Shown: in pieces, positions 17,739 through 57,244 of the stretch
Layout: each line of letters starts with the position of its first letter
Numbering within the stretch: position 1 is the first letter of the stretch
NCBI RefSeq assembly: GCF_963676685.1
Contig: NC_092345.1
Coordinates: 25,916,001-25,980,000, forward strand
Reading direction: 5' to 3'
Length of the DNA: 64,000 bases
Source of the DNA: Mytilus edulis
Taxonomy: Eukaryota
The notes under the pieces: model-generated
Database searches by the model: none
What the model was told of the DNA's origin: nothing
What the model saw: only the letters and a program-made list of their open reading frames with translations
Made by a program: the position numbers and the translations under genes

Positions 17739-20700
17739 ATGGACGAAAACGAACCTCTCATTAATAAATCTGGTGATAAAACTATTATAATATATACCAG
17801 ACGATGGTGGGTTTTAGCAATATTTTCATTGAATTGTTTTATGCAAGCCATAATTTGGAATACATGGGGACCAATTGCACAGTCAGCAAAAGAAGTATTT
17901 GGTTGGGACGACGGACAACTTGGAATGCTTCCTAACTGGGGAAACATTGGATTTATAGCTACTGTAATTTTTGCCAGTTATATCATGGACGAAAAAGGTA
18001 TATAATTTATAATTCGTTTGAAAGACTAAGTCTAGTACTTTCTTGTTAGTATATACCACGTACGCACTAATAGTCTACCATCGGATTAAAATTGCATATA
18101 TTTGAAGGAATTGCTCATATACTTGTGGTACCAATGTATGATGTCAAACCAATGTTTGTTTTTCTACTGTCACATGACAAGAATGTTTATATCAGAATAC
18201 ATGTATTATACAAACAGGGCCTCTAAAATGACCCCAGGCCACATTGCTTATTTGTTGACTTAACATATAAGGATAGAACGCTACACCAAAAGGGTTTTGT
18301 TATGTGTCTCAATAAAAAAATCGATTGATGCTCAGAGTTACAACAAACATATTGTATTCTATAAAGATTCAATAAAACTGGACCTTTAAACAAATAAAAT
18401 TTCATCAAAAACCTTTAACATTTGGGTTTCACTTATCATAAACATATTATAAATTCAAAGTTTATGACAGCATGTTCGTTCGTTGACTTTAACTGAAAAA
18501 TATATATGTCTATAAATATTTATCAGAATAAAGCATATATATATTTTCGAGATAATGTGTAGTAATTTAGTTAAACAATATATATATTCTGTGTGCTCAA
18601 ATAGTATAGATCGTCAAAGTAATTTTAAAAATCTTCGTTATTAATTCGACTTCTCATGTGCATAAAGTGTGTAACTAAGCGAACAAATAATTGCTAAGGT
18701 AAAGAATTTGAAGGTATATAAGTCAAGACTATTGTAATGTTTTACTTACATTTTGTATACTCTACAGGCTTGAGAATATCGTGTGTGGTGTGCTCAGGAT
18801 TGATATCAGCGGGAGCCGCATTAAGATGCATTACGAGCATCCCGAAATACGCTACATGGTAATTAAAATAGAGATAAGTTTCTTCCTTGTTTTTTCCACT
18901 TTTTTCATGCACATTAATGGCGAAACGAAATTAACAATCAAGGCAATATTTTGGTTCTGCAAAAGAGAGATACTAAAGGGACATTCAAACTAATCAGTTG
19001 AAAATAAACTGCAATGAAAGTTGACCGACATGAAGGTCAGACCATTGCTCAAGGTCTAAAAAATCATAAAAAAAATTCAACTAAATACAATAGAGTTCAC
19101 TTAAGAAGTTTTAGTCAGTCTATGACATTCAAACTAATATTAAGTTGAAAATAAACTGCAATGGAAGTTGACCGGCATGAAGGTCAGTCAACCATTGAGG
19201 TAAAAAAAAATCATAAAAAAAAATCAACTAAATACAATAGAGTTTACTTAAGAAGTTTTATTCAGTCTATGAATTTTACTTTGTCTAAATAAATAGGTTA
19301 ATCAACACTTCAGCCATACTGAATGGTATTGCTGGAACGGTTTTCTTTGCTGGACCGGCGTTGATAGCATCTGTATGGTTTCCATTAGACCAGCGAGCAA
19401 CAGCGACAGCGATTGGTTCATTCTTCAATTATGCTGGAGTTGCTGTTGGGTTTGTTATTGGTATATAGAATGAAATTCAAAACAGTGTGGTTGTGGCCAT
19501 TGATTGACACATTAAATTCATCCATTGACTGGGACAATTTAGGTGAACGTTTGTATGTAACGACCACTGCTCACTATGTACTTTTTAAAGACACTTAAAC
19601 TATGGGGTCAACAAAGGTCAAATGGCCACAGCCACACTGTTTTGAATTTCATTCTAATTGTATTGAAATAAAGCTTTAATTTCATTTGTTCGACGTAAAT
19701 TGCCAGACTGAATATGAATTTTTTTCCTGAAATACATATTCTTCATTGCTTTAGGTAAGCATATTTTTTAAATATCATATTTGATTTTTTTTTATTCTGT
19801 TTCATTTCTCAATATGAACATTTGGTATTACTTGAAACTTCAGTAACGAAAAGTAAAGTCTCTAAAGAAATGAATAACACGATAGGAATAATCATTTTGT
19901 ATTTTTGATGTAGACAGTTACATTTGTATTTATTAATCATCAAATTGCTATAATCTTAATATTTTTCTAATTATTGAAATGCATTCAATCTTATTGTAAC
20001 TGTATTTTATAGGCCCTCAATTAGTGTCTGCTCCAAAATATAACCACTCTAGTGCTACCGGATCAAGTCAAAGGTAGGTAAAACCTCTTTTAAAATGTGT
20101 TCAAACATCACCAACTGAAGAACGATGTACAATGTATGATATACTCTTAATTAATGACGAAAGTACTATTTCGGTACGATGTCAGATTTTACAGGACATT
20201 ATATTTTAGAATTATTACCATTCACAAATAAAATTGAGAATGGAAATGGGGAATGTGCCAAAGAGACAACAACCCGAGAACATAATGGAACACATCTGTT
20301 GTAACGTAGGCGCTTTTTATTTGTCTATTGAAGTGATTGAGCTTTAAAATTCATGAATTCAGAGTTGTCTTTCTTTTGTCGTAGAATATAATGAATTTAA
20401 AACTTGATTAAAAACTTGGAAACATCATCATGGGACAATAAGCTGTAATAGATTTTAACAAATTTAACCATAAAAAAAAACAGTCAACATTACGTACACG
20501 AATATTGTATATATGTTGTATCTGGAAGATAATAGTTCCAAGTTTTTTCACTTTACAATGGCTTTGAGAGTTCTATTTGAAAGTCAATCAAAATATCCAT
20601 ATTAAAATCAACTAAAGTTGTACGTTTCACTTTGATTTGTACAAAATAACTTCCTTTGGAACTGTTTTTGTTTGTTTGTTTGAAAAAGAACTTGAAAAAA

Positions 20701-23700
20701 GATATGTTTATGTGCGTACACTTCTTTTGTTGTAGTAACGATTTAACAACTGACATTTCTGTGACAACTGCTTCATACGACAACCACACGAGTAGGTATT
20801 AAATATATACGATTTAGTTTCGTATTATTATGTTCAGGTTACTGTCTAGATAAAGAGCAACATACATATCGTTTTTATAGTTGTAAGTATATTGTACAGT
20901 CGTACGCGAAACAAAATATAATGTGTCGCATTATATTCTTTTTGAAAGAGCAATAACTAATCAAAAGCCGAACAAATAATAAATAAACAGCTGCGTCATG
21001 AGCGCATGATACGCACGTCGTCTTGTGTGTGAATTTTTATGCAATAATCATAAATAGTTTCTGACATACGGCGCGACATGTGAACCCCCCCCCCCTCTTT
21101 TTTACAAAAATAAAGTTTTAAACCATCAGCAAAAAGTATACAGATCTTTAGATTAATATAACTAAGAAGAGTGTAAAGTCTTAAGCATTAATCATAAATT
21201 GTTTTTGAAATACAGCCCTGTTTTAATTACAGTTTTAATCTTATTTTCACCAAAAAGTATACAGATCGTTTGACCATTATTAGAAACAGCAATGGTAAGT
21301 TTCATGAAATTTAGATATTAAGTCATTCTCAAGTAACGGTGCGACAGACAGACGGACAAACGGACAGACGACATTTGTATACCATAATACGTTCAGTCAA
21401 AATTTTGACGGGCGTATAAAAATATTACAATGATCAATAAGGTGAATTTTTGCAGATATACTAAGTCTTGTTTTACGTTTTTGATCATCTTCAATCTAAC
21501 TATATTTTCAGCACTTTTGAATTATTCACAATTACAGACTGAGACAATGTGGCTAATGTATTACGGTAAGTTAACTTATGTCAAACGCACTCCTGGAAAG
21601 ATAAAGTTGGATTTTTATTTTTCTGAATGTTTGACTAACAAGCAATGATATCAGTATGGTATTATATTATCCTCATCTTTCCTTTTCGTTATTGTAACAT
21701 CATTAACGTACGAACAAACTGTTTGGATCACTACATTTAGATATCAAGCTAATGTTTCTGTAGTAACACATTTTTGTTTTGATCAAGTTTCGTGCATTGA
21801 GGGTAAGATTCTCGCATTTAATTTTGTGATGTTTTGTTAAAAGCTTGTTTTACATGGAACTATTGCGTCCCGAATGCATATTTCACCAAACAGGGAATGT
21901 AAATTTATTTATGGTCAATTTAAACCATCGTGAATTGCATTTTCAATTTAGACAATGCCTTAAAACAAGTTTAAACTACCAAGTAATGTGACGGTATGGC
22001 GATGTTATAACAACAATAATGATACGCGAACTACGATGCAATGTAAAGACGTTGCCAAAACGAAAAAGACGACTTCAACGTTACAGGACAGTGAAACTAT
22101 TCAGATTCAGGGTTGTATTTTTATGTACAAACTGGACAGAAATCCGGAAGATACTTATAACTGGTAACTTTCCCTCAAATTTTTTTATAACACGACTGCA
22201 TATGTAATCAACATCTTAATATCAAGCTATGAATATTTCATTTCAGAGTGTATGGCTGCAGGTGCCCTTTTTATAGCTGGTTTGATATACTTCCCTGATA
22301 AACCACCAACCCCTCCTAGTTATACTGCTTCTGTCAAGAGGATAGAATATACAAATGCTTTAGGCAAAATTATAAGGTAAGATTTATAATGTCAATAAAA
22401 AACGAAAAAAAATCATTTTATCATGCGTCGATCCGTAGATCTATTGGATTTAACTCGTCAGGAACGCCCAAAGACGATTGTTTGAAGGCCAATGATGTGT
22501 AACAAGTTGTAACAACCGAAACAGTTGAAGATCTACAGAAAAATGGTTTCAAATGTATTTGAATTAGAGAACAAGTTTTGCCGCCTGCTTACCAATTAAA
22601 ATACATGAACGATTTCTGTATAATTATATGACTTCTTTCTATTTTAAAAGTCTATGTTTAAAAGTCTGAACATAGAATACTTGTTTGTGGTAGCAATGAT
22701 TTGATATTGCCCATCATTCGTTATTACAAGACAAAATAGATCTACATTGTTCGTTATTATCAATAAACAATAATAAATGTCACAACTGTAAAAATTTGTA
22801 GAACGAAATTCAAATTGTAGGAACTTAAAATACTGAAAATATTTATCTTTTGAAAATATTACAAAACAAGAATGTGTCCAAAGTACACAGATGCCCCACT
22901 CGCACTATCATTTTCCATGTTCAATGGACCACGAAATTGGATAAAAATATAATTAGGCATTAAAATTAGAAAGATCATATCATAGGGAACATGTGTACTA
23001 AGTTTCAAGTTGATTGGACTTCAACTTCATCAAAAACTACCTTGACCAAAAACTTTAACCTGAAACATGCACTTTCATTTTCTATGTTCAGTGGACCGTG
23101 AAATTGGGGTCAAAAGTTTAATTTGGCTTTAAAATTAGAAAGATCATATCATAAGGAACATGTGTACTAAGTTTCAAGTTGATTGGACTTCAACTTCATC
23201 AAAAACTACCTTGACCAAAAACTTTAACCTGAAGCGGGACAGACGGACGAACGAACAGACGGACGGACGGACGAACGGACGAACGGACGCACAGACCAGA
23301 AAACATAATGCCCCCCTACTATCGTAGGTGGGGCATAACAATATTGTTTTATGGTTAACTTATAATTCATATTTCCAATACAGCTTCTTTTTAAGACTAA
23401 ATCACAAAAACAAACCGGTTTTTTTCACGAAATGTTTCAATTGTTTTTCCATAGGAGTGGTCCTGTATGGTTAATCTCACTAGCTTACGCATTACCTGCG
23501 GGTGTTTATGGTGTTTGGGGTTCAGTATTAGATGTTATTCTTAATCCAGTTGGTGTTAGCCAGGCAAGTTTTTCTTTCAACAGTGGTGTCAACGTGTGCT
23601 ATGTTCAGAGATCTGCAGTGTGATTACATTTCAAACCATAGCCTTTGATCTTTCCCCCTATTTTTGCTTCGCGATAGCAATACTCAGATGAGCAGGGGTT

Positions 23701-26700
23701 TTATTAATTAATGATATGATTTCCGAGTCCATGTTTTTCAAATTCCCTTCATTAGGTACGCACGCGACGAAAAGTGAGGAAAACAATGTAACGATTTGAG
23801 AACACAAACACATAATTGGCCTATCTAGAAAAAGCCAAGACAACCACCTACTTTTTTTAAAATCTCCTAAGTGAGTTTCAATTTAAGTTTAACCCTGGAC
23901 GTGTTAATTATGAAAACGTTCAGTAAGTTGATTGGAATTTTAAATGCAAATACAAAATAGACTTTGTTGTCTATTTTTTTTTATTCTATTGCAATTGATA
24001 AGAATAAGCAAATCCATTTTCTTCAAATTCCCGAATCAAGGATATCAAATATTTTCTGCGATATGTCAAATAGGGATGTTCCATTAAATTGATTTGATTA
24101 AATCCGTTAAACTTTAAGCCGTCGCTGTATTCCTCCGAACATGAGACATATTCCTGAAATAACATCCCATTATTCAAAAACATTAAGACCACAATAGTCT
24201 TAACGTTCAGAAATGACACCGGAATCAGAACATCTCAATAATTGTCAACAACTAAATATTTCAGACAGACGTAGGATGGATTGGGTTCTTTGCTACAATG
24301 GCTGGATGCTTTGGAAGTTTAGTTATTGCAAGGTTTGTTTTCAAGTTTACATTCATTTAAAATTGCTATTTTACTTTCAAGATTAACACAGAAATACAAG
24401 TTTAATGTTAGGAAATACAAGTATAATGTTTAGAACTGCAAGTATAATGTTAAGAAATAAAGATATAATGTTAAGAAATACAAGTATAATGTTAAGAAAT
24501 ACAATGCACTATGTTCAATAAACTTAAAATAGTAGTTTGTTAGATAGTCGTACAGCCACGGGAAAGATGTTATTTTTTCTGTTTCGTACTATTATTTTGT
24601 CGCAGAATTTCAATGTAGAATCGCGTTGTAGTCCTCAAACAATTGAAAGTCTAAAGTATGTTGATTCGGATCCCACGCACTTGATAAAATAGCCAGGCGG
24701 ATAAGAATAAACCAAGCACGAATCGAAAATGTATCAAGCTCTAATGCATAGGAGAATCATACGATAAACGTGAATCCATAATATCGCTTTTGGTCAGATC
24801 TCGTGAACAATTTTCAAGAAGAATAGCCAGTGACAAATTATCTGCAACTGCAAACGTATAATCTCTTTATTTCCAGGTTCGCTGATCTATTTATGAAACA
24901 CATGAAGTTATTTTTAGTTTGTTTATATATATGTGGTGGAGGATCTTATGTTTGGTTTACTTTGATCTGTACAAAGATAATTCCATACTCTTTAGGTAAT
25001 GTATTAATTCATGAATAGAAAAGTAAGGTCAATTTACATCATCAGCAGGATTATTAAAAAAATCCTAGTGAATTGTACGAGACAAGGAATCAATATTATA
25101 GATCATTACAGTACTGTAGCCATGTGTCACACCTAATTGAGCTTCGGATAAAATTAAGTAATCATTCAATGTTTTATTTGATTTTTAAAGCGCAATGATA
25201 TCTTTAAACTGCATATTATTTTTACCACAGAAGATTTTGCTGAATAAGGATGAAATAATGAATGAAAAAGCACTTCCGGAATCCTATTGAAAATAAAACG
25301 ATACATTTCTTTCACATGCAGACTGATTCAATTTGATTTTGGTAGATTTTCACTGCGCAAACTCGTGAAATAAGTAATAACTACAATTTGAAACTCTGAA
25401 TTTCAACAAGAAAAGAAGAAGAAATACAGAGAGCGAAGTAACTGCTTCCTTGACTGACAAACGTATAATCTATACATGTATAACAATGCGTATTTCAACT
25501 ACCTGTACTATTTTAAAGCTACTTTATTTATGTTTCTATCGCTTTAATTAACACTTTTTTTATGAACATTTTTTTCCCTATCTTGCAGTTCAGATTTATA
25601 TATCTTGTATCATTGGCTGTATATTTCTTAATGGAGGCATACCATTATTTTACGAACTTTCTTGTGAAGTATCATATCCCATAGCAGAAGGAATAACGGG
25701 TGCTTTTCTTACTCTACTAAATAACTCATTTGGTGTTATGTTTTTGTTAGCACTACAGATTCCAAATATAGGTAAATCATTATATATTTAAATAGTATAT
25801 ATGCAATATGTTTATTTATAATTTTTTATTAGAATGTTTGAGTCTTTGACAAAAATGTAAATTGCGTCTTATTTTTCATTAAAATCAAACAAAAAGTAAA
25901 ACTAAAATACCGAACTCTTTTTAAAAAGTGTAATAACTGACAAAATCAAACGATATGCATCAACGGAGAAACAACTGTCATATTCCGGATTTGGTTTATG
26001 CATTTCCTTAGAAAATAATGGGTTAAACCTGGTTTCATAGCTGACCGAACCTCCTACTTGTATGACAGTTGTTGACAGTCCCGATTAATAAACAAAATCG
26101 TGTGTGCACTCAAAAACAGCCACAAAATGTCAATTTGACATCAACCTGGATTCAGCAGTCAAAACTGTATAAACATACATCCTAGACATACAACACATCT
26201 GACCAAACATTCGAACACACATAAAGTAATCCATTAGCATGAGGTCGTTATTATTTCACTCGTTTAAATTGTTTTGTCATGTAGGATCTTTTCATAGCTG
26301 ACTTTATATGGTTATGGTTGTGCACAGACAAAAGGACAAAAACACATGTTTCTATATAATATATAACTTCTTGAAAAACTGTATACGAATTTCTTTTCAA
26401 TTTCAAGAAATAAAACATAATTTTGAAAAGTACAAAATGTAGTTATAATGGTATACGTTTTGGTTTAGTAAACATTTGTTAAAATTTAATTTGACAGATT
26501 TTAAAAGGGATATTTTTTAAGAAAAAAGTGCAGAAAAGAGACTTAATTTATAACATAAAAAGCCCATCGAAACGATCAAGATGATATGAAATAGATAAAC
26601 AGTTTATTCATGCTTAAAATATTTTCTAGAATATTCTAATCACATGAAGTGACAACCAACAACTTTAGAACGCCAACAAAAAAAATTAAATATAATTAAT

Positions 26701-27233
26701 CGAAATAAAACGTTTAACTATTCATGACGAAAGAACCCTGCATGAGAATGTTGCAAATTACGTTTGAAAAGAAACTAAAACAAAACAGTGTTATGGAATA
26801 TAAGGTATCTTTGATGACTTGTTTTCACAAATGACTGAGACGATGACACTGTTGGTTGAGGTTTCCTCCCCAAGGGCATCCTCAGATCAGTAGTCATCAC
26901 TTTTGTGTTGACATTGTTGGAGAAACCTAACACAAAAGAATGTATAAGCATAACACATAATGATAATAAATATTAAATGTAATATCTGAAATATTATATT
27001 GATTAACAGGAACATCTTGGATGAATTGGACATTGTTAGGTAGTATAGCTGTTGGACTGCTATTTATGTTTGCATTCCCTGAATCATATGGTAGAACTGA
27101 CTTAGATATGGAAATAGATATTCCAGCTCCAACTGAAGAGGAAAAGTCTATTGTTTTTATACCAAACGGTTCAAATAAAATCATAGTGAATGACGATATT
27201 TTAACAACTACTCATGATATAGCATCAACATGA
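17739..27233 (+). CDS. SLC49A4: SLC49A4/DIRC2-like lysosomal major facilitator superfamily transporter, 12 coding exons, ~505 aa
   Basis: Exons: 17739-17997, 18768-18858, 19297-19460, 20013-20073, 20736-20791 (least certain, needed for phase), 21512-21565, 22247-22376, 23455-23563 (GC donor), 24265-24332, 24877-24995, 25589-25771, 27010-27233; 1518 nt in frame. Family motifs: YTRRWWVLAIFS, WNTWGPI, WFPLDQRATATAI, YFPDKPPTPPS, GWIGF, ARFAD, PLFYELSCEVSYPIAEG, WMNW, YGRTDLD. N-terminal ENEPLI fits the [DE]xxxL[LI] lysosomal sorting motif. An AG acceptor at 17731-17732 implies an upstream non-coding exon. Confidence 0.92.
18980..19272. repeat. Tandem duplication, 2 x ~145 bp, in SLC49A4 intron 2
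   Basis: GACATTCAAACTAAT...AGTTGAAAATAAACTGCAATG...CTTAAGAAGTTTT..TCAGTCTATGA is repeated at ~18980 and ~19124. Confidence 0.85.
19468..19654. mobile_element. Foldback MITE family A, internally deleted copy (187 bp), TA TSD
   Basis: Same termini as 7278-7720, with the centre deleted. Begins at intron position +8 after the exon ending at 19460. Confidence 0.9.
20985..21421 (-). mobile_element. Non-autonomous Helentron-type (HINE-like) element
   Basis: Terminal palindrome TGCGTCATGAGCGCA, subTIRs ATACGCACGTC and GACGGGCGTAT, GACA/GACG microsatellite at ~21343-21370. Confidence 0.75.
22864..23338 (-). mobile_element. Non-autonomous Helentron-type (HINE-like) element with two ~167-bp tandem units
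   Basis: Hairpin TGTGTCCAAAGTACACA, subTIRs ATGCCCCAC and GTGGGGCAT, repeat units at ~22902 and ~23069, (GGAC/GAAC)n microsatellite at 23238-23290. Confidence 0.85.
24390..24503. repeat. Minisatellite, ~5 x 21-22 bp (AGAAATACAAGTATAATGTTA)
   Basis: Direct tandem copies in the SLC49A4 intron after the exon ending at 24332. Confidence 0.8.
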
Positions 27234-27990: not shown

Positions 27991-28850
27991 CTTTTCTACT
28001 TGCATCAAATTAACAAAAATGTGCTATTGATATCATTTCTTGATATAACTACCACATGTGGTTTCAGGATTAAAGCCACTGATCACTTGCGTCGTATATT
28101 GAAATTTAAAATGTTTTTGTTTGTTCCAACAGAAAGACTGGTTTACTATTGTGAATGTGATGTCTTCAATTAAAATTATGTTGATTTTTCTAATCTTCTG
28201 TCAAACTGTTTTTTTACACGAATTCTAATTTTGTCCAAAAACATCATTTTGATCTTACAATGATCAATGTCATTTCATTGTGTTGGACATATTTGAAACT
28301 TAACAATTGAAATATAAGACAGGCTTACAAATACTTAAATCAAACAACCTATAGCAATGTATGCCACATTCTCAACAGCCTCCATTGAAATAAAATAAAA
28401 AAAAAACGTTTTCTCCTTAGTGAAATGGTTTTGCAAATGGATTAAATATATAATATCCTTAGCGTGTAGTTTCTTTTAATATTTTGACTTTTGTCATCGT
28501 CCAAACAACCCATATGTAGTTTTAACGTTTAGTAGTAACGGTGGTCGTCCAATAACAACCAAATGTGATTCATTTTTATGCATTAGTTGAAAGTGTATAA
28601 CATTTTGTCGGAAAACATTTGCAAATCGAAACATGATTTACATAGTTCAACATAGAATACACTTTGATACATCTACTGAAGCGTATTATGTTGAAACACA
28701 AGTCATGTAGCAATAACCGGCATTATGCAAAATGTCTGACAAAATGAAAACAGCTAGTTAACAAAATTCATACTTTCAAAGACTTTTCCAGATTTACTTT
28801 CATTAAGGAAGCTCAAATAGTTATCAAAGGTACAATGATTATAATTTAAT

Positions 28851-28894
28851 ACGCCAGACGCGCGGTTCGTCTACATAAGACTCATCAGTGACAC
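28851..28894 (-). ncRNA. Minimal type I hammerhead ribozyme motif (copy 1; A15.1 changed to C)
   Basis: GUGUCA CUGAUGA GUC UUAUGUA GAC GAA C CGCGC GUC / UGGCGU. The GUC cleavage triplet is intact, but the core reads GAAC instead of GAAA. Confidence 0.85.
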
Positions 28895-29025
28895 TCAGAT
28901 CACAATAGTTATAAAGGCCAAACAAGTACAAAGTTGAAGAGCATTGAGGACCAAATATTCCACCAGCAGTGGCATCAAACCAGTGGTGTAAATAGTAATC
29001 AAAGGTACCAGGATTATAATTCAAT

Positions 29026-29069
29026 ACGCCAGTTGCGCGTTTCGTCTGTATAAGACTCATCAGTGGCAC
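29026..29069 (-). ncRNA. Minimal type I hammerhead ribozyme motif (copy 2; cleavage triplet GUC changed to AAC)
   Basis: GUGCCA CUGAUGA GUC UUAUACA GAC GAAA CGCGC AAC UGGCGU. The catalytic strand is intact and the substrate triplet is mutated. Confidence 0.85.
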
Positions 29070-31957
29070 TCAGATCAAAATAGTTATAAAAGCCAAACAA
29101 GTACAAAGTTGAAGAGCATTGAGGATCCAAAATTCCAAAAAGTTGAGCCAAATACGGCTAAGATTATCTTTTCATGGGATAGGAAAATCCGTAGTTTTTT
29201 AAAAAAATTCAAAGTTTTGTAACAGGACATTTATTAAAATGACCATATAATTGATATTCATGTCAACACCGAAGTGCTGACTTCTGGGCTGGTGATACCC
29301 TCGGGGACGAAACGTCCACCAGCAATGGCATCGCCCCAGTGGTGTAAATAGTTATCAAAGGTACAATGATTATAATTTAATACGCCAAATATTTGAAAAT
29401 CAAGGATGTATAAAAAACCAAAACAATTGTAGAGCTATATAATCCAAAGGACTTAAAATAGACAAATTCATCTGAGGTCAACTTAACATGTTTAATAAGT
29501 CTGGAAACATGGACAAATTGATTTTTGCACCATTTCCCCGAACAAATTTATAGTGTTCAAAATTATACAGAAGATATAGCATATTGCATACTTTCAAGTT
29601 AAGAGGGTGTTTTGGATTAATGTTTTTTTTTTAATAACTTTCATGTCGATAAACGAGAAGTCTTCATCCCCATTGTTTTCTTTCTAAAATCAATAAACTC
29701 TTGTACCCTTTTTTTATAAGTAAATTTGCGGGTGCAGACCTTATGCACCTGACGCAACATTGATAAGTAACAAGGTATGCTCGTTGATGATTATTGATTT
29801 TATTAATAAGGTAATCAATTATGGCTTGAAATTATTTTGTCGGATTTTTTAACTTCTTTGGTACAGAAAATGTTGCTTTAAGTACTTTCATTTTAGCTAA
29901 CGCTTTTATTGCAAAAGCATTGTTTCTTTTATATTTACTTTACATTAAACATTACTTTAGAAATATAAATAAAAAGTATGGATGATTTTATATAATAATC
30001 AGAACATTCAGAACGAGTGAGTGATATCATATCTGTTATTATGTATAATATGGAATGACAAAAAAAAAACCAATAAAAGAGTGATAATTTCTAAAGAAGA
30101 TGATGAAATCCTCAACAGGGTCATCTGGTAATACTTTATGATGAGGTCTATCGCTGGTCCATATTTGGTCTTTGTTACTTCAACAGAAACAAGAGACGGG
30201 AATGTTAAAAAAATGTTTGAAGAAAAGAAAGAAAAAGAAAACATTAGAAAAACAATAAGGTCTTTCCTCACGTAGAGGAAATACCTTAATAAGGAATAAA
30301 TGAAGTACTGTTTTCCGTTAATTGTGAAAACCACCCATGCATCAATTATGTGTTACATTAACGTTTAAAGACTTTAAAGGGTATACAATATATATTGAAA
30401 TTTGAAACTCCTATAGCAATTGAAGTGTTTAAACTTCCGTGTTAAATAAAGTTTTATATACAAAATAGCATTATTTGCATAGGAATAATGAATTGCAAGC
30501 TGTGTTTTTACATTGTCGCATTTCTATTCTTTGAAAACTGTGAGTATTTAAACATTAACCAATCTTATGAAGGGATGAAAAACATAATATTATTAATTAA
30601 TTTGATTTCAAAAACGTCTTTTAACACAATTTTTGGGTGGGGTACTAAAAGGAAGTTACACCATTGATGTACGATGAAACACGATGCCTATATTTCGGGA
30701 TAACATTATATAATGAACAAAAGGAGCACGCAGTGAAGCAGTAGAGTAATTCAGTACAAAAAAATAAGTTTTATAATTTCTTTTCAGTTTTGATAAAACT
30801 GAAAAAACTCTTTTAAACAATCTTGATCATTGCAAATAAATCGTTTAAAAAACTTCAATGAAATCGTATTGAAGAAAAATTTCTCGATTTAAACGAATGC
30901 TTTTAGAGCAAATATAATAAAACATGAAGTCACGCTTGATATTTACTAAAGTGGTATATTGCATCCACTTTTTACAGCAATATTGTTCATAAAGCTGACA
31001 AATTAAAATATTTCCCTACAAGTTTTCTCTTTGGCATCACCTCCTTATTGGAAAAGTAAATTATTCTGCTTGTATTCAATCGTTGCATCTGTGTTTTGTT
31101 TTTAGCATTAATTCAATAATTCATATTTTGAACAATACAAACATTTTTTTCGGAGTCTTTGAACCATACTACAGATAGTGTCTTTTTGACTCTTAATGAT
31201 ACTGCTAGCACTTATGGTGTAAGAAATCCACTGTGAAATTCAGCAACCGATATAAAAGTACAAAAAGGCGTACATACCAATCACCAGCTTAAGTACTTTG
31301 CGCTTAAATTTCTTAAATATTCACCGTTGATGTTCGAGTACTGTGCTTCTCCTCTGATTAACTTTAGATTTAGTATTTGTATTATTTTTTTTTGTGTATT
31401 ATAAATTGTGAAATAATCAACTCTTGTATATGTGGAAGTTGAAATATGTTTGAGAGCATGATATGAGTTGGCTCCCGGAGGACAAACATTGCCACTCATC
31501 TGGATAAAACACCCTTAAGAAAGAGTTCCAATTAAAGATGCGTCGTCATTTATGAAATGTAGTTAATATTCCAGCTAAATGAAATATGTTTTCTGTATTG
31601 TCTTCTTCCTTAGATAATCATGATAGGTAATATTTTTGATTTGTGTTACCATAATTAGCTGATCTTTTACTAATAAGATATACTAGTAAACTACAATGAC
31701 TTGTAATTGAAGATTATCCAGGAAGTTTAAATTCTTTTGAATTCATAATCATCATAAGTTTAAAACATTGACCTTTAATAACAGCAATAACAAAGAACAT
31801 GTTGCATGATAGAAATAACTTTTTTTGGTCTCGTGGTAATTTTAAATGTGTATACTTATATATATACATACCTTCTTTGTAAGATAAAAATTGTTGCAAT
31901 ATATTAACGATTTCTAAGGTTTGAATGAAGTTTACTCCAATTTTCAAATCCTGAAAG

Positions 31958-33784: not shown

Positions 33785-34426
33785 TATTTTCCTACCTAGC
33801 CTATATTATATGCTTAGAAATAGACTACCTTAAAGAGTTTTTGATACTTTTTCAATAAACACTGTTAAAAGTCAGATTTTCTCACCCAAAGGCTCAATGT
33901 GATTGTTTTCTGTAAAATAATAAAATTCCATGCCTACCTACCCTATTTTTTTCCAAACATGTAATATGAAATACACATATTATTTTATTTGGCCTGATAA
34001 AAAAAGGAAAAAGTTATAGCAAATAAATATTCTAATCTTTTGTGAGTCCAGTTAACACTTCTGTGTTTACATGCCTTATGAATGATATTGTCATATTTAT
34101 ACGTTAATTAATTACAAAACTATGAATTATTCGACATACTGACGATTAACTACCCAGGGAATACATTATCGTAGTTGTATTTGGCAAAACCTTTTGGAAT
34201 GTTTGGTCCTCAATGCTCAATTTCATTTGCCTTTTTCTCTTTTCTTTAACCTTTTTTTTGTATCTTGAGTACACATTATAGGTCTGGTATCTTTGAAGAG
34301 TTTATATATACATATATTTCTTGACTTACTTGCACGAACAACATCCTGTGGATAGAACTTTAACCCAAGTGATGACATACGCGCGAAAATAAATATCATT
34401 ACGATTGTCTTTGCCTTATTTTAAAG

Positions 34427-37400: not shown

Positions 37401-40400
37401 TCCTAAACGGACAATTTGAGAATGGACGCTATAATTCATGTTAATGCCGAGGTATTGAAAACTGATGTGATAATTAGAGATTTTCTAGTGTTGAATTAGT
37501 AGCAAGTATGTTCAGTTTCTATTGCCCAAAAGTAAGTTATTTGCCTCTCTGTTAAGCTTAACGCCACGCCACCTTCACCTCTTGTTCGCCTGCATATGTC
37601 ATATTTGTTTTGAGGCTTTTAATTATCGTCCTGATTACGAGTTGTGATTCCTCTTTTAGACTTTTCTTATAACTACACTCAAACTATACCCTTGTGGTTT
37701 ACTTAACCAGAAGAAATAATCCACCAATGCCAACATATTCTTGATTCGAGTTGTGACACTTAAGTGGGCTCCATAAGTTAACTTCATCAGAGGAAACAAT
37801 CCACCACTGCCAGTTCTGTAAAAAACATACATTTTTTTACATCCAAATTTGGAACTGACTACTCGTGGTACTGGAAGCAGCACACTTATTTTTGTGTTGA
37901 AATTGTGACCTTTTTGTTCTGAAACTTTATTTGTATTTGTTTTCGAAAATTCTTGATGTTTATACGGGATATTCGGGATACATGATTTCTTTTTGATTAT
38001 TTTTAGTTCTGAACTAGCTTTCAGTAACTGCTTTTACTTTTAATTACATCTTGATAATCCTATATTCTGCAGTTTCTTTAACCACTGTCCCAGTGTAGGG
38101 AATGTTTTTTATTGTAGTTTTGTACATTAATAAAGCCGTTGGATTTTCGTTTGAATTGCTTTATAATTTGCTATGCAGAATGAGGTTTTCTCACTGACAA
38201 ATGTTGTACGGTGACATATAGCTTCCAACATCTACGCTGGTCTCTACTTGATAGTTGTCTTATTGGCAATCCTATAACATATCCTTATTTTATAATACAC
38301 ATAGTTGTTACCGGATCTTCTACCTGTTTTGAGGCTAAGTTGAAACATATGTTTAAAATTTATATAATGCAAAATACTCATCTCACTTAAAACGTAATAA
38401 AACGAAGGCAGTGATGCATCAGCGACGCTTAACAAAAGGTTTCATTAATAATCCTTTATTAAGAGCTATACTAACTTTATCAACAGAATGTAGTTTAATA
38501 TATTATAAAAGAGGGGCAAAAGATACCAGAGGGATATGCAAACTTATAAATCGAAAAAAACTGACATCGCCATGGCTTAAAAAGACAAACAGACAAACAA
38601 TAGTACATAAATTACAACATAGGAAAATAAAGACTAAGCAACACGAACCCTACCAAAAACTGGAGGGAAACCTCAGATGATCCGGAAGGGTAAGCGGGTC
38701 CTGCTCCACATATGGCATCCGTCATGTTGCCCATGTTAGTGCTAACCTTACAATAATTATAATCCGATAGTCACAATATAAGTTAATTCAAAAATTGATC
38801 AAGGGCAGATGCAGAAAAATATAACAAAGAAGATCGCATAAATTTTGATTTGAACACTTTGTAGCTATTGTTCAGATATGCTGATATAACATACATTTTC
38901 AAGATTCGTATTTGCTAGTTATTTTCCAAAATAATTTTAAAACATTTCCCTACATTTATTTTACAAACAAGATAATTTTCTTTAATCTTTTGAATGTGCA
39001 CTCTAGGTTCTTAGCAGTAAAGCAGCATGTGTGTACGAAGTCGTTGAAACTAAAATTGAGTTATCATATAGTTCTTGCTATGCAACATCAAACAGAACAA
39101 GAAATGTGCTGTATTATTTTAAAGTTTACTAAAACTGATAAACGTATGTGTGTATTACATTGATTTTGATTGATCTCTATTTCTAAAAGTGTTTAAAATA
39201 TTGGAAATCAGCTTCAGATTTCGATTCTGTCACTATAACATTTTTAGAAAACTTGTAATTGATGTTTGTAATATTCCTCATTTGGTCCTCCGATTTATTC
39301 AAATATTATATTCAGATTGTCAAACGTTTTTTTCTTTTTTTTCACAAATTAGAAGCTTTACTTTCCTTTATCTACAGGTTTTTCTATGTGTTAAACAAAG
39401 AATGTTAGCAAGATGGAGAAACGCGCGTCTCTCGTACAAAACTATAAGCTTAGTATCTGTTATGAACTAATTTAACACTAACCCCACTTCAACTAACTCA
39501 TCAAAGAATCCAGGCCTATAATTTTGTAGGACAGATACCCGTTTCGTCTACAAAAAACTCATCACTGTTGCTTGATTAAAAGAATGAAAAAGTATAATAA
39601 AGTACGAAGTAGAAGAGCATTTGGAAACCAAAGTTCAAGCGAGGTTGAGCAGTTCTAACATTACTTGTTGAACCAGTCTCCTTGCTGGTAAATTTCAAAG
39701 TTTAATGTACGAGGACTTTTAACAGTATTTTCTTCTGGTTGTAGGGTAACAGTTGTTATTGTATACCTGATAATTATTCATGGGAGACAGATCAAAGTAA
39801 AGTAAATGATTCAATGTGCAACAAGACATGTGGAGAAAATATGCAGGACTCTTGTGGTGGCAATGGGTATATAACTGTTTATAAGACGGGTACGTCTACA
39901 TTTAAATACATATCTATTAACGACGATCCGCCTCACAAAATATCATGTCGTTTTAATTTGAAGTGATATGGATATAAGAAAATAAGGTTTGATTGTCAAT
40001 GAACCAATTATCCATCAAAGTTTTAATGAAGTGGATATAAGCAATCAAAAGCAACCCGACAAAATTCAACAATCAGAAAGCATCATATCGTATAGCTATA
40101 AAAGGCCTTGAAATGATGAATATGAAACAACTTAATTTAGAAAACTACCGGTCTAATGCATAACAATTTAATGCACAACGATTTTCGAAAAACAAATATG
40201 ACCGACATGAACCAACGATCACAATTGATCTACAGGCTTCTGACTTTGGACATGTACAAAATGCATGTCAATGTTTTTTAATGTTTATCCGCCTGCTTAC
40301 CTGTGACTGTAAAAGTTATCATTTATATTATTAGTGTCAAATAGTATAGTGCTTGACAGGGATGATGAGCCAGACAAAAATTCTATAATGTGTGGTTGTA

Positions 40401-43400
40401 TGGAGTGCACCAACAACGGATGGCTATACTATGGGTATTCTTGTAACCAATCACTACAGACGACTTGTAGTAAGTAATTTGTATCCATACTGTTTTTAAA
40501 ATGACTATTATGCAACATGTTGCAGGCTCCATTGTAATACAAATTTCTTTTCTTTTTATTTTGAATACGTATTATTGGAATCACGCATTACATTGTAAAT
40601 CTAAAATTTTCGATTTAATTTTTCACTTCGTGTATTTTGGCATTATGGGGTTAAATGTTTTGCATGTCAATCTGAGGTATTTTTCTTTTATTTGTGCCCA
40701 AAATCTTAATCTTGTATTTTTGGGCTAATTTATCTTGAAAAAAACTTTTTGGAGATCGACTTATCTATGCTATTGTTTTGTTTAAAATATTTTCGCGGTT
40801 TGTCTGTGAATTATCTTATATCATGCAAGTAAGCAAATACTATGAATGAAAATGCAAAATCGTTTGAGGATAGTATTCTTAAAAATCTTCTTAAATGTTT
40901 CTTAATCTTTTAAATAGATGACAAAAGCGAGATAGAATGTAACAGAAATTGGAATGAAGGTAAAGAAGCTTGCTGGTCCGATCAACAATCGTTTCTCTTA
41001 GCTGGAACAAATATCGATTCACGTTGTGACAATACGACAAGTAGAGCCCCGGTTTGGATAGGTCTTTACAGGCGTAAAAGAACTCAAGTTGTGAAAGGTA
41101 AATGTCCAGTCTTAATAAATCTATTCACAGCTTCTGTTAACTCATGAATACTATAATTACATATGGTATTCAAAACTGTCAACTGTAGATGTTTCAATTG
41201 TTATTGTGTTTTTTTTTAAATTTCCTTACATATCAGCATCAATTTGTTGTTGTGTTTGGTGGAATGATATTTCTACAGATGTTTGTAACATAGGAAGCAT
41301 AGTTTCCAGTAGATGATAACGTTAAGTTTCAAATACTGAATTATTCTTTACTCTTTTTTTCTTCCGACTTTTTTCTTCTATGATTGTTTATGGTGAGTCT
41401 TGTGTAGGTGACACGAATGTCTGGCATACCAAATTATAAGTCTAGCAACTTTAATGAGTTTTCGTAATACTAATATACCTCCTTCTAATGACGATGAACC
41501 TATCAAAATTGTAACTCTTTTCAGCGTTTACACTTATAAGGTTTATTATTCCTTTGATATCTTTCTCCTCTATTGAGCATGAATCCTTTATCTATTTAAA
41601 TTCTATGTTCTAACGTATATGAGCAACAGCTGCAATCTCAATATATTTTGTCATACACTGTTTTAATACAGCAATATTGATGCTGTTACTGAATCTCATT
41701 CAATGCATTCGTCACACCCCCCCCATGCGAATCAACCCTTTATTTAAATGTCCCAAACAACATTCTTGTATCCATTGCCCTGAAACAATGGAAACATGCT
41801 TTTAATGAGTTCAGAAACAGACACATCATATCAATCGTCCCTGTTCCTTTTGTGTCATCGTGTATAATAATATATTTGCGTGATTTCTAGTAGACCTTTT
41901 CAACTTGTCTCGACACCGACTAATGACACCTACAGTTTACAGGTAAAATGGGTGGGTCGTCTCAAAGACAAAAAACATCATGATTATCAATACGTAACAT
42001 ATTGGATTGGCGGTTATATACTGTCTTGACTATATAGCTTCAGAATATATATCAACCAAATAAATAAATAAATATATGTCTCTGTCATATAATATTCTTA
42101 TTTTGTATGTATTTACACGACATTTTATGTTGGATTGATTAAAACAAATACAGCAATCATTCTGCATCCTGATCCACTTTATCTTCAATTTTATGATTAA
42201 GCGAGTCTTTTACCAAATATTTGCCGCATGTAAATAACGATTCGTTTGTTTATGTAAAAGCTTTTATTCCATTTATGATCCGCTGCATTTCCAGGAGGAC
42301 TGTTCTCCTTAGAGACAAATTTATCCAAATCGTCATCCTTTAGTTACACCATTTACAACACCTCAAATTAATTGTAAAGCATAACATTTGAGAGAAAGAG
42401 CAGAAAATTTAATCGCGTGATTGGTGAATACAAAATTCAAGTGGAACATAAAATTGGTGAATTGAAATAACTGTTACATTATGGAGGCACCCAAAGCCAA
42501 AACTAACAGACATTGTGGAAACATGTGCCGCTCTTGTCAACAGAGATATTTATGATAAAACATTGATTAATTAAATATCAACTACAATTAAACATGCTTT
42601 GATCTTTTCATTTCCCAAATTCCACCAGGACCGCTAGAAGCTCAACGTCTAAAAAGATGAAATGTGACTTAAAGTTCATCATTTTCTTTATAATAAATTA
42701 AAAAAATCCATGTTATTTGGACTCTGTAGGAAAGCTATATCATTGTCAATGAAAGCAATAAAATCAATAATGATTTTAATTTTTTAGAGACGACCCCTCA
42801 CATTTTACCTGTCGTAGTCGTTCTCAACTGTAGGTGTCGAGAGATGTTGAAAAGGTCTACTGAGACTACATCGTCACATATACACGGAACAAAGATTTAG
42901 AGTAAATAGGTCAAAGGATCATCCTAAATAAAACGAATCATTTACATTCTAATCTGTTCCTTTGAGGTTGTAAACAAAACTCACAATCGTCACAAATGTC
43001 CTGTGTTTGATAATGCTTGTATCCTTCACATATACTCAAGGTCAATGCTTTCAATGCAAATACATTTTGTATTTCCCGATTCCTATTTCCAGTTTCTGGA
43101 ACAACAATAACAAGCATGAGCGTGGAACTGTATAGTATGCAAAAAAGGAGATGCGACATATTTCTTCCTGTGCAATCATTGTAATTTTAAAGCAATACAG
43201 ATATCATATATAACAAAGATTACTTGTGTCATTAACAGAAGAAGAGTCATCAGTATCTGCAGTTTCTTGTTTTCATGGGATGCTTACTGCTGGTGTTCTA
43301 AGTATAGACAGTAACTTAAATTGTACAGCTCAACTTCCATTTATATGCGAATTAGGTAAGAAAAAGTAAACAAATTTGAATATTATATAAAGATATTTAT

Positions 43401-46400
43401 TTAAATTAATGCAAGCATTTATTTACAGTGCAAATTTAACAAAACAGAAAAAAAAAATCGAAATGTAAATTTAAAATAACAACAGATAAAATAATGTGTA
43501 TAGGTTTAATTGATTACAACAGATCAAATATTATTCAATCTCTTTTCGATTTTTTGCATATAGCGTAATTTCTTTCTCTTTTACATTTATGCCATAATTA
43601 CAACCTTCCATCTTTTCCTATAGTGAACTTTCCATTTCTGTGTAGCAACATCCCAGCGGCACCAGCATATGGAGTATATGTGTCTTAATTGATATGTTAC
43701 TCTAGAGCTAGCTCAAAGTACGCTGATTTTGTTGAACGAGGAATACTGCTTTCTCAAAAGTTGATAAGACAGGGCTATGAATCAATCAAATTAAGGTCAT
43801 CACTCAAGAGAAATTTTACGGTCGCCATCATGAGCTGATTGGCCATTATGACAAAAGTGTGTCAGAAATCATATCTGATATTCTTCCTCAGTCATAATAA
43901 CCTTCCATCATTACCGAACTGAACAAAGAAATAACACGACCGGTGCCGTATACGGTGCAGGAAATACTTACCCTTCCGGAGCACCTGATTTCACTCCCGG
44001 TCTTTAATGGAGTTCGTGTTGTTTCTTATTTATTATTTATAACTGTTGATGTAAATGTCCTTTGGTTTTGTGAGTCTTTGTTTACTCCTTGGTTTTTATT
44101 GTTATTGTCTTCAAGTCTTTTATTAATGATTTTTGTAGAAAGCTTATCACTGGTTGTCCCGTACATTACATGCGTTTACATAAATACACTTATATTTTGC
44201 GAATCAAAAATGCTTGGAATTAGTTAAGTTCATGGTAAAAATGTTAATATAGACTTATCACCAGGTTTGTGCTTGCATTAGCGTCACGACGGGTGTCATT
44301 TGTAGAGAAAAGTATGCTAACCCTTCCGTAGCACCTGCTTTAAACCCTGGTTTTTGGTGGGGTTCGTGTTGCTCAGTCTTTAGTTTCGTCATTTTTGTTT
44401 TTTGCCATAAAGTTTTCAGTTTATTTAAGACCATGCTTTTGAATTCTTTAGTGTTTTTCGATCCTTTTTGAAAAATATATATTGTAAAACTATTCTCAAT
44501 ATTAAATCAGATACAGAAGACGTTTTGTCCTCTGATTGCTATGTATATCCACCAGAGCATGTAACAACAGAGTTAACAACAGTAGAAGAAGTAACAACAC
44601 AAACAAAATCTGTTGACATAACAACGCCTGCAAGCGGAACATCACAACCAAAGAAGTTAACTGATGATAATGATGACATTAGCCCAGGTAATTTATGAAA
44701 AGAAGACTTCATGTAATGTGTTATTTATCTAATATATGCTCCGATGGGCGTAAAAATATGTGGTGGATTTTTTGTTAGAATTTGATGATTCGAATTTGAT
44801 TCAGTACGATTTTGTTTTATTTTACCATATTGCTTCAATGTTTTAAAATGTTAACGATAAGGTTACTTTGGTTGCAAGATTTATTGATAATAACGTCAAG
44901 AGGAAACTATTACATGCTAGTTCGTGTGTGTAATTGTTTAATCTCATATGAGTTGAGACTTTGATATCTTGTAATGATTATATTGTACTATTGTATACAA
45001 GTCAAGTGTGTCTTAATCCATTTTTTGTTTGTAACAGATGAGCATTATAGAAAGTTTTATAGTAAAAAGTCTTCTTGTGCTTTGCAAGTTGTTTGCTAAT
45101 TATTTTGTTTTTCTATATTTTGTATAGGCGCAGCTGTAGGTATTGCGTTTGCAGTAGTTTTACCTACCCTTCTGGTCATTGGTACTATAATCTGTCACGT
45201 GGCATGTGGACAAAAGTATGTGTTACTTATAATAGACATTCTTACTCTTGTATTTATATAGGCACCACTTACAAGGCAGTTTATCAAATATATCGTTAAT
45301 TATGTGCAATGTGGAATGAGGGTAACAAAACCTTCGGGAGTTCTCATTTGATTGGAGGAACCTACCAGTAAACAGTTTAAGATAAAACAATTAGAATGTA
45401 ACTATTATTTTTATTTCCTTTCAGGTCTTATAGCTCCTCATTTTTCAGGTATTCGGACATACTAGCCTAGTTGGCATTAATTTTTTGGGGGTTTGAGCGT
45501 TCCTGTTGTCAGTTTAATCCAGAAAATCGCTTCAGACAAAATAAACTTATAAAATGTCACTTTCAATCATAATTCTCAAAATCTCATCAGAGAATTTTAA
45601 AGAAAAAAGAGGGACGAAAGATACCAGAGGAACATTCAAACTCATAAATCAAAAATAAACTGACAACGCCATGGCTAAAAATGAAAAGGACAAACCGACA
45701 AACAATAGCACACATGACACAACATAGAAAACTGAAGAATAAACAACACGAACCCCACAAAAAACTAGGGGTGATCTTATGTGCTCCGGAAAGGAAAGCA
45801 GATCCTGCTCCACATGTGGCAAATGGAAAGTTCACAATTGGAAAGCTGAAATCATCTCTTTTGTTGTAAAGTTTTGTTTTCAATCGACCCTCATTGTCAA
45901 TTTCTAGATTTAAGTCAAAATATGAGGCCGACTTAACTGTATCTGTTGTATCCTTTATCTCTAGTTCAATGGGATAGATGCATTCGACATAGTCACCACA
46001 TTTTGAATTATTTAGTGAAAGAACATCATCTATATAGCGGAATGAAGAGGGGCACAATTTATTCCCATTGGAATGCCGATAGTCTGTTGAAAAACACGTC
46101 CTCCGAACGTAACAAGTATGTTGTCAATCAAGAAATCAAGCATCTTGATAATGTCAGTTTCAGAGAATTTTTTGTTTGAATCAGAGTGATCCTTTACAAA
46201 GTAGGATTTATCCCTTCCTAAGACAAGATACTTGTATCTTCGTTGACCATTCTTTTTTGTATTAAACAAAGCAATACCAACTCTATCAATTTGTCTTTTA
46301 GTTTGGAATGTGGAATATTTGTATAAAGTGTAGAAAAGTCAAATGTTTTGATACTATAACAAGATGAAAGAGAGTTAGATTGCATGTACTCTAAAAGATC

Positions 46401-48339: not shown

Positions 48340-48540
48340 AATCTCATCATAGATACCAGGATTGAAAATTTGTATTTACGCCAGACGCGCGATTCGTCTA
48401 CAAAAAACTCATCATAGACGCTCGTATCAAAAGAAGTTATATAAGCCAAATAAAGAACGATGTTGAACAGCATTGAGGACCTAAAATTCCTATTTTTTTG
48501 CTACAATACAGCTAAGGTAATTTATTTCTGATTTAGAAAA
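48340..48540 (-). mobile_element. Degenerate retrozyme relic with mutated hammerhead core
   Basis: Minus strand reads GAGCGUCU AUGAUGA GUUUUUUGUAGAC GAAU CGCGC GUC UGGCGUA (48378-48423), with flanks homologous to the 28815-29387 unit. Confidence 0.75.
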
Positions 48541-48869: not shown

Positions 48870-49600
48870 AATTTGAAATACTAAGGCTTTTCTATCCCAG
48901 GAATAGATATCTTAGCTGTAAAAACCTTTTAAGAATGTTTGGTCCTCAATGCTCTTCAAGTTCGTACCTTATTTGTCCTTATTAACTTTTTTTAATTCGA
49001 GCGTCACTGATAATAGATATAGGAAGATGTGGTGTGAGTGCCAATGAGACAACTCTCCATACAAATAACAATTTAAAAAGTAAACCATTATAGGTTAAAG
49101 TACGGCCTTCAACACGGAGCCTTGGCTCACACCGAACAACAAGCTATAAAGGGCCCCAAAATTACTAGTGTAAAACCATTCAAACGGGAAAACCAACGGT
49201 CTAATCTATATAAACAAAACGAGAAACGAGAAACACGTATATATTACATAAACAAACGACAACTACTGTACATCAGATTCCTGACTTAGGACAGGTGCAA
49301 ACATTTGCAGCGGGATTAAACGTTTTAATGGATCCAAACCTTCTCCCTTTTTTCTGAAACAATAGCATAACATCACAACAAAGAAAAACATACGATAAAA
49401 TATCAATTGGCAGACTTAACTCAATCAAAAAACCTATGATTAAACAATGAACGAATAAATTTGATCTGCGATATCTGAATACAAATGCACAGTTAATTAA
49501 ATAAAAGAGACAAACACAACAAAGATAAGTCTTTTGAAGACTAAACGCGTGTCTGTTGCAAATACATAATTTCAATCCTGGTATCTGTGATGAGTTTGTT
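48870..49600 (+). mobile_element. Retrozyme relic whose hammerhead core is interrupted by a 510-bp repeat insertion (49014-49523)
   Basis: GAGCGTCACTGATAA | insertion | GATAAGTCTTTTGAAGACTAAACGCGTGTCTG. GATAA is duplicated at 49009-49013 and 49524-49528. Confidence 0.75.

Positions 49601-55964: not shown

Positions 55965-57244
<1,280 letters not shown>

What the first reader, a model, noticed from the sequence alone, without database searches (positions are those of the whole stretch)
28851..29069. Two individually broken hammerheads with complementary lesions could form one active ribozyme
Seen in sequence: the 5' motif (29069-29026) has an intact catalytic strand (CUGAUGA...GAAAC) but a dead AAC triplet. 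The 3' motif (28894-28851) has an intact GUC site but GAAC in place of GAAA. In a double-hammerhead fold, ACGCGC of the 5' copy pairs perfectly with GCGCGU of the 3' copy (6-bp stem III) and GUGCCA pairs with UGGCGU (stem I). That restores every core nucleotide, with predicted cleavage between 28857 and 28856. An internal deletion has brought the motifs to 175 nt apart. Established knowledge: minimal hammerheads with palindromic stem III cleave best as dimers. Inference: this may be a natural split ribozyme making one cut rather than releasing monomers. The pattern could also be coincidental decay.
Basis: inference. Interest (0 to 1): 0.72.

Follow-up and report, generated by a model that had tools for sequence, protein, structure and literature searches.

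The report
Decayed mussel retrozyme hammerhead dimer
This is one worn copy of a mussel repeat that carries over 13,000 intact self-cutting RNA motifs; its two damaged motifs could on paper pair into one working ribozyme, but such pairs recur elsewhere about as often as random decay would give, so it is likely ordinary.

Summary
The sequence observation is right. The 5' motif has an intact catalytic strand and an AAC triplet, the 3' motif has GAAC and an intact GUC, and the cross-pairing restores all 16 helix pairs and every core base. The locus is a decayed two-unit copy (356 + 175 nt + 42-nt tail) of a hammerhead repeat with 13,310 intact motifs in this genome, matching the mussel non-LTR retrozymes of PMC7229834. 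Neighbours of triplet-dead motifs are catalytic-strand-dead in 13 of 33 cases against 31% genome-wide (p = 0.35). Fourteen other complementary pairs occur, in both orders, several folding better. Here the hybrid fold is predicted 6.8-9.8 kcal/mol above the ensemble, against a median of 2.1 in intact dimers, and a local helix competes for stem I. The deletion junction is unique. No read from three RNA runs was assignable to this locus. Double hammerheads and natural split hammerheads are both published. Weak in vitro cleavage at 28857/28856 remains possible; function is unlikely.

The parts
28815..29387 (-). Whole retrozyme-type insertion: one full unit, one internally deleted unit and a 42-nt tail
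   Evidence: Self-alignment and TRF; family matches in the genome; tail ends where 78 of 287 family motifs stop following the unit, 39-45 nt past the cut site
29032..29387 (-). Unit 1, 356 nt, starting at the cleavage-site position; 9% from young copies
29026..29069 (-). 5' hammerhead motif: catalytic strand intact (CUGAUGA 29063-29057, stem II 29056-29044, GAAA 29043-29040); G16.2>A and U16.1>A at 29034 and 29033; four further changes
28857..29031 (-). Unit 2, 175 nt, lacking 181 nt of the unit; 7-9% from young copies
28959..28962 (-). Deletion junction with 4-nt TGGA overlap; found once in the genome
28851..28894 (-). 3' hammerhead motif: A15.1>C at 28865; GUC intact, predicted cut between 28857 and 28856
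28815..28856 (-). 42-nt tail, the usual 3' end of this repeat family
29092..29098 (-). Upstream GUUUGGC: UGGC is predicted to pair with GCCA (29067-29064) of the 5' motif and to compete with the hybrid stem I; also offers a weak type III-like fold at GUU
29284..29322 (+). Hammerhead-like motif on the opposite strand of unit 1 (CUGGUGA...GAAACGUC) with three mismatches to a working core; deleted from unit 2

Best explanation
The locus is a decayed two-unit copy of a hammerhead repeat with over 13,000 intact motifs in this mussel genome, and its complementary lesions are likely random post-insertion mutations that happen to fall in the same half of the family's predicted double-hammerhead fold. 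In a tandem transcript the palindrome ACGCGCGU of two neighbouring motifs would pair, so that each catalytic strand works on the other copy's GUC. One hit in the 5' triplet plus one hit in the 3' catalytic strand then kills one active site and leaves the other complete on paper, with no selection needed. Shown: repeat structure, copy numbers, lesion positions, frequency of such pairs. Inferred: insertion by reverse transcription, decay after insertion, the fold. I put weak in vitro cleavage at 28857/28856 at about 40% and a biological role at under 5%.
For: 13,310 fully intact motifs; 19,423 with stem II and substrate side intact, so 6,113 (31%) carry a change in CUGAUGA or GAAA. Each lesion recurs alone: 16 AAC copies, 42 GAAC copies, 187 copies with U16.1 lost and the catalytic strand intact. 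Neighbours of triplet-dead motifs are catalytic-dead in 13 of 33 scoreable pairs, p = 0.35 against background; 8 of 17 upstream versus 5 of 16 downstream, p = 0.48; neighbours of GAAC motifs are catalytic-dead at a similar rate, 5 of 11, p = 0.74. Fourteen other complementary pairs at 12 loci, 11 with all 16 pairs, 7 folding better than this one. The two units differ at 21 of 174 shared bases, about 6% decay each, which alone predicts the pattern in about 3.6% of such dimers. Hybrid fold 6.8-9.8 kcal/mol above the ensemble in four constructs versus median 2.1 in 25 intact dimers. Junction unique.
Against: The neighbour test is small: the 95% interval for 13 of 33 is 23-58%, so a modest enrichment is not excluded. 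The background also counts neutral changes at position 7 and uses other constraints than my neighbour classes. All 16 hybrid pairs and all core bases survive here, and one change in the 5' motif (T>C at 29066) turns a U-G pair of the hybrid stem I into C-G. One of 10 reads over 28865 in one RNA run carried the window's base; it could come from this locus or any of the other GAAC copies. ViennaRNA models neither tertiary contacts nor co-transcriptional folding.
Confidence: 0.86

Rival explanations
1. The locus is a retained, single-cut split ribozyme: it is transcribed on the minus strand, the 5' catalytic strand cuts the 3' GUC, and loss of the second site and the deletion were kept because they give one cut instead of circles, for instance to end an antisense transcript running into the DIRC2 gene.
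For: All hybrid pairs and core bases are intact. The element lies about 1.6 kb past the DIRC2 stop codon on the opposite strand. Split hammerheads exist in rodent lectin 3' UTRs (PMC2920678 passages).
Against: No enrichment of the pattern; hybrid no better than the median chance pair; a competing helix holds the stem I strand with predicted probability 0.8-0.99; zero read depth on the unique flanks in three RNA runs (weak).
Confidence: 0.04
2. The 5' motif would cut by itself, through a type III-like fold on the upstream GUU (cut after 29096), so any cleavage needs no second motif.
For: Rfam's best match at the locus is this type III arrangement, 22.5 bits, E 0.039. Its stem I (UGGC/GCCA) is predicted at 0.8-0.99 and the whole fold costs 5.2-9.6 kcal/mol, equal to or less than the hybrid in three of four constructs and within 0.1 in the fourth.
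Against: Far below the gathering score of 48.5; stem III is three pairs with predicted probability at most 0.01; U17 is a poor cleavage base (recalled, no call).
Confidence: 0.05
3. The 175-nt unit or the lesion pair is a variant that replicated as RNA and was inserted as such, a mini-retrozyme lineage.
For: Two other loci have 174- and 178-nt units that also lack 181 nt; both window motifs share one C>T change.
Against: Those two share a different junction, at the family's usual 3' end; this junction occurs once; no other AAC motif lies next to a GAAC motif; the two units differ by 12%.
Confidence: 0.02

Closest known systems
Non-LTR retrozymes of Mytilus galloprovincialis (Cervera and de la Pena 2020, PMC7229834; read parts 2-4 of 6, supplement unreadable)
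   Same: Type I hammerhead in tandem units of about 350-390 bp, thousands of copies, two related subfamilies, low GC, mussel host (DIRC2 exon 100% identical to a Mytilus edulis record).
   Different: This copy is decayed, has an internally deleted second unit and no intact single motif. Sequence identity to the published clones could not be checked.
Double-hammerhead structures of ASBVd, newt satellite 2 and Penelope-like elements (PMC4209133, PMC6466107, PMC3088659; passages only)
   Same: Two tandem motifs join palindromic stem III/loop III sequences so that each catalytic strand acts on the other copy's site.
   Different: Here only one of the two sites is complete, through mutation. The mussel motif also cleaves in a single cloned repeat, unlike the amphibian ones.
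Split (discontinuous) hammerhead of rodent lectin mRNA 3' UTRs (review PMC2920678, passages)
   Same: Enzyme and substrate parts separated by up to hundreds of bases on one transcript.
   Different: That one lies in an mRNA in the sense direction, occurs in several mammals and has expression data; this one is antisense to and downstream of the nearest gene, with no conservation or expression shown.
Rfam RF00163 Hammerhead_1
   Same: Same core and the same GAAACGcgCGUC stem III; a family copy scores 32.5 bits, E 1.5e-05.
   Different: The 3' motif scores 20.1 bits, below the gathering score of 34; the 5' motif is listed only as a type III match; nothing passes gathering in the window.

Membership tests
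Non-LTR retrozyme (mussel) | Type I hammerhead motif in each unit | tested here: met
   Family copies match RF00163; the two motifs here are 6 and 2 changes from the commonest family motif
Non-LTR retrozyme (mussel) | Tandem units of about 350-390 bp | tested here: met
   Unit 1 is 356 nt; 117 of 130 adjacent motif pairs in the fetched loci are 340-379 nt apart
Non-LTR retrozyme (mussel) | Thousands of dispersed genomic copies, no coding capacity, low GC | tested here: met
   13,310 intact motifs; no ORF of 90 aa over the element; region 31% GC
Non-LTR retrozyme (mussel) | Target-site duplication (variable, 'when present') | tested here: inconclusive
   No shared word of 6 or more bases at the two boundaries
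Non-LTR retrozyme (mussel) | Sequence identity to the published M. galloprovincialis clones | not testable with these tools
   Supplement unreadable
Non-LTR retrozyme (mussel) | Expressed and self-processed into circular monomers | tested here: inconclusive
   Reads of other family copies are present, none assignable to this locus; with one complete site at most, this copy is predicted unable to release a monomer
Double hammerhead | Palindromic stem III/loop III able to cross-pair | tested here: met
   Family ACGCGCGU; 6 of 8 cross-pairs remain here
Double hammerhead | Cross-paired fold actually forms and cleaves | not testable with these tools
   Prediction only: 6.8-9.8 kcal/mol above the ensemble
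Natural split hammerhead (lectin type) | Complete core from two separated parts of one strand | tested here: met
   16 of 16 pairs, all core bases
Natural split hammerhead (lectin type) | Lies in a host transcript in the sense direction | tested here: not met
   Nearest gene DIRC2 is on the other strand and ends near 27233; no flank reads (weak); an unannotated minus-strand transcript is not excluded
Natural split hammerhead (lectin type) | Kept across species or beyond chance | tested here: inconclusive
   No enrichment within the genome; orthologous alleles could not be read because family contigs swamp the locus
Penelope minimal hammerhead | No helix III or loop 3 beyond core bases; located in a PLE terminal repeat | tested here: not met
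   Motif has a 2-bp helix III with a GCGC loop and lies in a 356-nt non-coding unit

The most novel reading that the evidence does not exclude
Double-hammerhead pairing lets decayed tandem copies rescue each other, so that the genome holds dozens of single-cut ribozymes born by mutation from a circle-making element, and this one is transcribed and cuts an antisense RNA just downstream of DIRC2: a split ribozyme caught at birth.
Probability: 0.05. Interest if true: 0.6.

Novelty: already known. Interest (0 to 1): 0.15.

Why it matters
As it stands it matters little: one worn copy among more than 19,000, in a described family, using a described fold. The useful by-product is a set of 14 natural complementary-lesion pairs that could serve as ready-made tests of whether mussel hammerheads cleave across copies. 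If the locus were transcribed and cut in tissue, it would show a route by which a mobile circle-making repeat gives rise to single-cut split ribozymes like those in rodent lectin mRNAs.

Tried and rejected
Rfam at gathering scores found nothing in the window; only sub-threshold matches appear at the locus. Target-site duplication: none at the boundaries. Propagated short unit: junction found once; the other two short units share a different junction, found twice. Internal repeat that might explain the recurring 181-nt loss: no excess identity at offsets 174-182. DNA contigs of four runs were swamped by other family copies and no piece spanned the locus, so allele state in other individuals is unknown. 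RNA reads of three runs (one study, about 6% of each run, a species label other than that of the best DNA holder): 108, 110 and 124 reads laid, nearly all only partly, zero depth on 28500-28827 and 29402-29700, the family base at 28865 in 7 of 7, 6 of 6 and 9 of 10 reads, no pile-up of ends; this is no proof of silence. The bacterial promoter scan is irrelevant to an animal genome and was at chance level. An intact version of the opposite-strand motif: the 27 matches are, by their listed letters, 26 ordinary family motifs lacking the GCGC loop and 1 unrelated, none of the opposite-strand type. Literature: searches listed no paper whose title or abstract start describes natural complementary lesions in retrozyme dimers; one search (double-hammerhead, GAAAC, mutant) returned 0. 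Lunse 2017 and Davies 1991, the likely experimental precedents with mutated dimers (recalled), are not held, so that precedent is unread. Earlier scan findings were not available.

Full report
Observation. The 5' motif (minus 29069-29026) has the full catalytic strand and AAC at the triplet; the 3' motif (28894-28851) has C at position 15.1 and an intact GUC with C17 at 28857. Pairing the 5' catalytic strand with the 3' substrate strand gives six pairs in stem I, four in stem II and six in stem III, all standard. The other cross-pairing has C-A mismatches at 15.1-16.1 and 15.2-16.2.

Anatomy. The motifs belong to an insertion at 29387-28815: a 356-nt unit, a 175-nt unit lacking 181 nt, and a 42-nt tail. 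The deletion has a 4-nt overlap and its junction occurs once in the genome. The tail ends where 78 of 287 family motifs stop following the unit, 39-45 nt past the cut site; 5' starts of arrays are spread over the unit. A fixed 3' end with variable 5' ends is what reverse transcription into the genome would give (inference). No target-site duplication was found. The nearest gene is a DIRC2/SLC49A4-type transporter on the plus strand, its first exon identical to a Mytilus edulis record, coding exons 17739-27230; the element is about 1.6 kb beyond it on the other strand.

Family. The genome holds 13,310 motifs with a perfect core and 19,423 with stem II and the substrate side intact. Young arrays have units of 353-359 nt with near-identical motifs. 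This matches the mussel non-LTR retrozymes of PMC7229834 (parts 2-4 read: about 5,000 type I hammerheads, units of 350-390 bp, two families, a single cloned repeat cleaving at about 0.1 per min, abundant circular RNA). The supplement with sequences could not be read, so membership rests on host, unit size, motif and copy number. A family copy matches RF00163 at 32.5 bits, and that model's consensus has the same palindromic stem III.

Is the complementarity more than chance? Each lesion recurs alone: 16 AAC copies, 42 GAAC copies, 187 copies with U16.1 lost and the catalytic strand intact. I fetched the surroundings of the first 100 of those 187, all 16 AAC and all 42 GAAC copies. After dropping this locus and duplicate loci, 104 triplet-dead anchors had 38 neighbours 120-420 nt away. 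Five were set aside (2 gapped, 2 dead on both strands, 1 triplet-dead). Of the other 33, 13 were catalytic-dead, against 6,113 of 19,423 (31%) genome-wide, p = 0.35; without two very decayed partners, 11 of 31, p = 0.70. Orientation does not matter, 8 of 17 upstream and 5 of 16 downstream. Neighbours of GAAC motifs were catalytic-dead, the useless combination, in 5 of 11 cases after dropping one shared-lesion pair counted twice, and triplet-dead once. The interval on 13 of 33 is 23-58%, and the background is approximate, so a mild enrichment is not excluded. The two units here differ at 21 of 174 shared bases; 6% decay per copy predicts a complementary pattern in about 3.6% of dimers. Scaling 13 pairs per 104 anchors to 187 gives about 23 such pairs under this strict anchor alone (my arithmetic).

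Would it fold? An intact dimer at 174-nt spacing costs 1.4. Among the 15 complementary pairs this one is the median; pairs in L165, L163 and L112 cost 0.9-2.4. The T>C change at 29066 strengthens the hybrid stem I but also makes GCCA, which pairs with an upstream UGGC at predicted probability 0.8-0.99 and opens a weak type III-like fold on a GUU at 29098-29096. These are equilibrium predictions without tertiary contacts, so weak cleavage is not ruled out.

Expression. Three RNA runs gave only partial reads, with the family base at 28865 in 22 of 23 reads and no depth on the unique flanks. That is one study, 6% of each run and another species label, so it gives no support and little refutation. 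DNA contigs could not resolve alleles.

Mechanism. Most likely a tandem cDNA of the retrozyme circle was inserted, unit 2 lost 181 nt, and both units decayed. Because the family's two-motif fold assigns the 5' triplet and the 3' catalytic strand to the same active site, two independent hits can leave the other site whole. Shown: structure, counts, frequencies. Inferred: order of events, fold, activity.

Comparison. Double hammerheads through palindromic stem III are described for ASBVd, newt repeats and Penelope-like elements (passages of PMC4209133, PMC6466107, PMC3088659, PMC7761336). Natural split hammerheads are described in rodent lectin mRNAs (passages of PMC2920678). The locus works like the former on paper and fails the transcript and conservation features of the latter. 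Searches listed nothing on natural complementary lesions in retrozymes, but two likely precedents were not held.

Verdict. Real observation, known family, known fold, chance pattern. Interest 0.15.

Noticed in passing
window 29284-29322, + strand (opposite to the ribozyme strand), and 128 motif matches in the fetched loci (overlapping loci not removed): A hammerhead-like motif on the antisense strand of the retrozyme unit, CUGGUGA-13 nt-GAAACGUC, spaced like the sense motif and with an ACGU palindrome, but with G at position 6 and two mismatches at the base of stem II. A loose after-the-fact pattern matched 27 of 2,000 shuffles. The second subfamily lacks it, both strands fold the stretch into hairpins, and no intact version was found. 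Possibly a relic of an opposite-polarity ribozyme.
   Followed up: partly
L002:1855-2029 and L003 (minus strand, 178-nt unit): Two other short units lack 181 nt, the same length as in the window, but share another junction at the family's usual 3' end, found twice in the genome; no internal repeat explains the length.
   Followed up: partly
L165, L163, L112, L093, L114: Complementary-lesion pairs that fold better than the window's, 0.9-4.8 kcal/mol above the ensemble; better test cases for cross-copy cleavage.
   Followed up: partly
L188-L193, L195-L197 and 17 more places in G000: Family motifs that have lost the GCGC loop of stem III and read GAAACGUC, the minimal form; two lie 346 nt apart as a tandem pair.
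   Followed up: no
window 17739-27233, + strand: DIRC2/SLC49A4-type MFS transporter gene, about 12 coding exons.
   Followed up: partly
window 26805-26914, 34050-34218, 39418-39636, 41391-41439, 48346-48490, 48872-49011: Older fragments of the same repeat family at 70-81% identity, without a recognisable ribozyme motif; the first lies in the last DIRC2 intron.
   Followed up: no
window 45587-46338, - strand: Broken reading frames with a YIDD motif that look like a Penelope-type reverse transcriptase fragment (resemblance recalled; Pfam gave no supporting match).
   Followed up: partly
window 55965-56300, - strand: Last exon of a homeobox gene, homeodomain positions 44-57, E 0.00037.
   Followed up: partly
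window 8603-9736, 18980-19272, 22902-23233: Other tandem repeats with periods of 126-169 nt.
   Followed up: no
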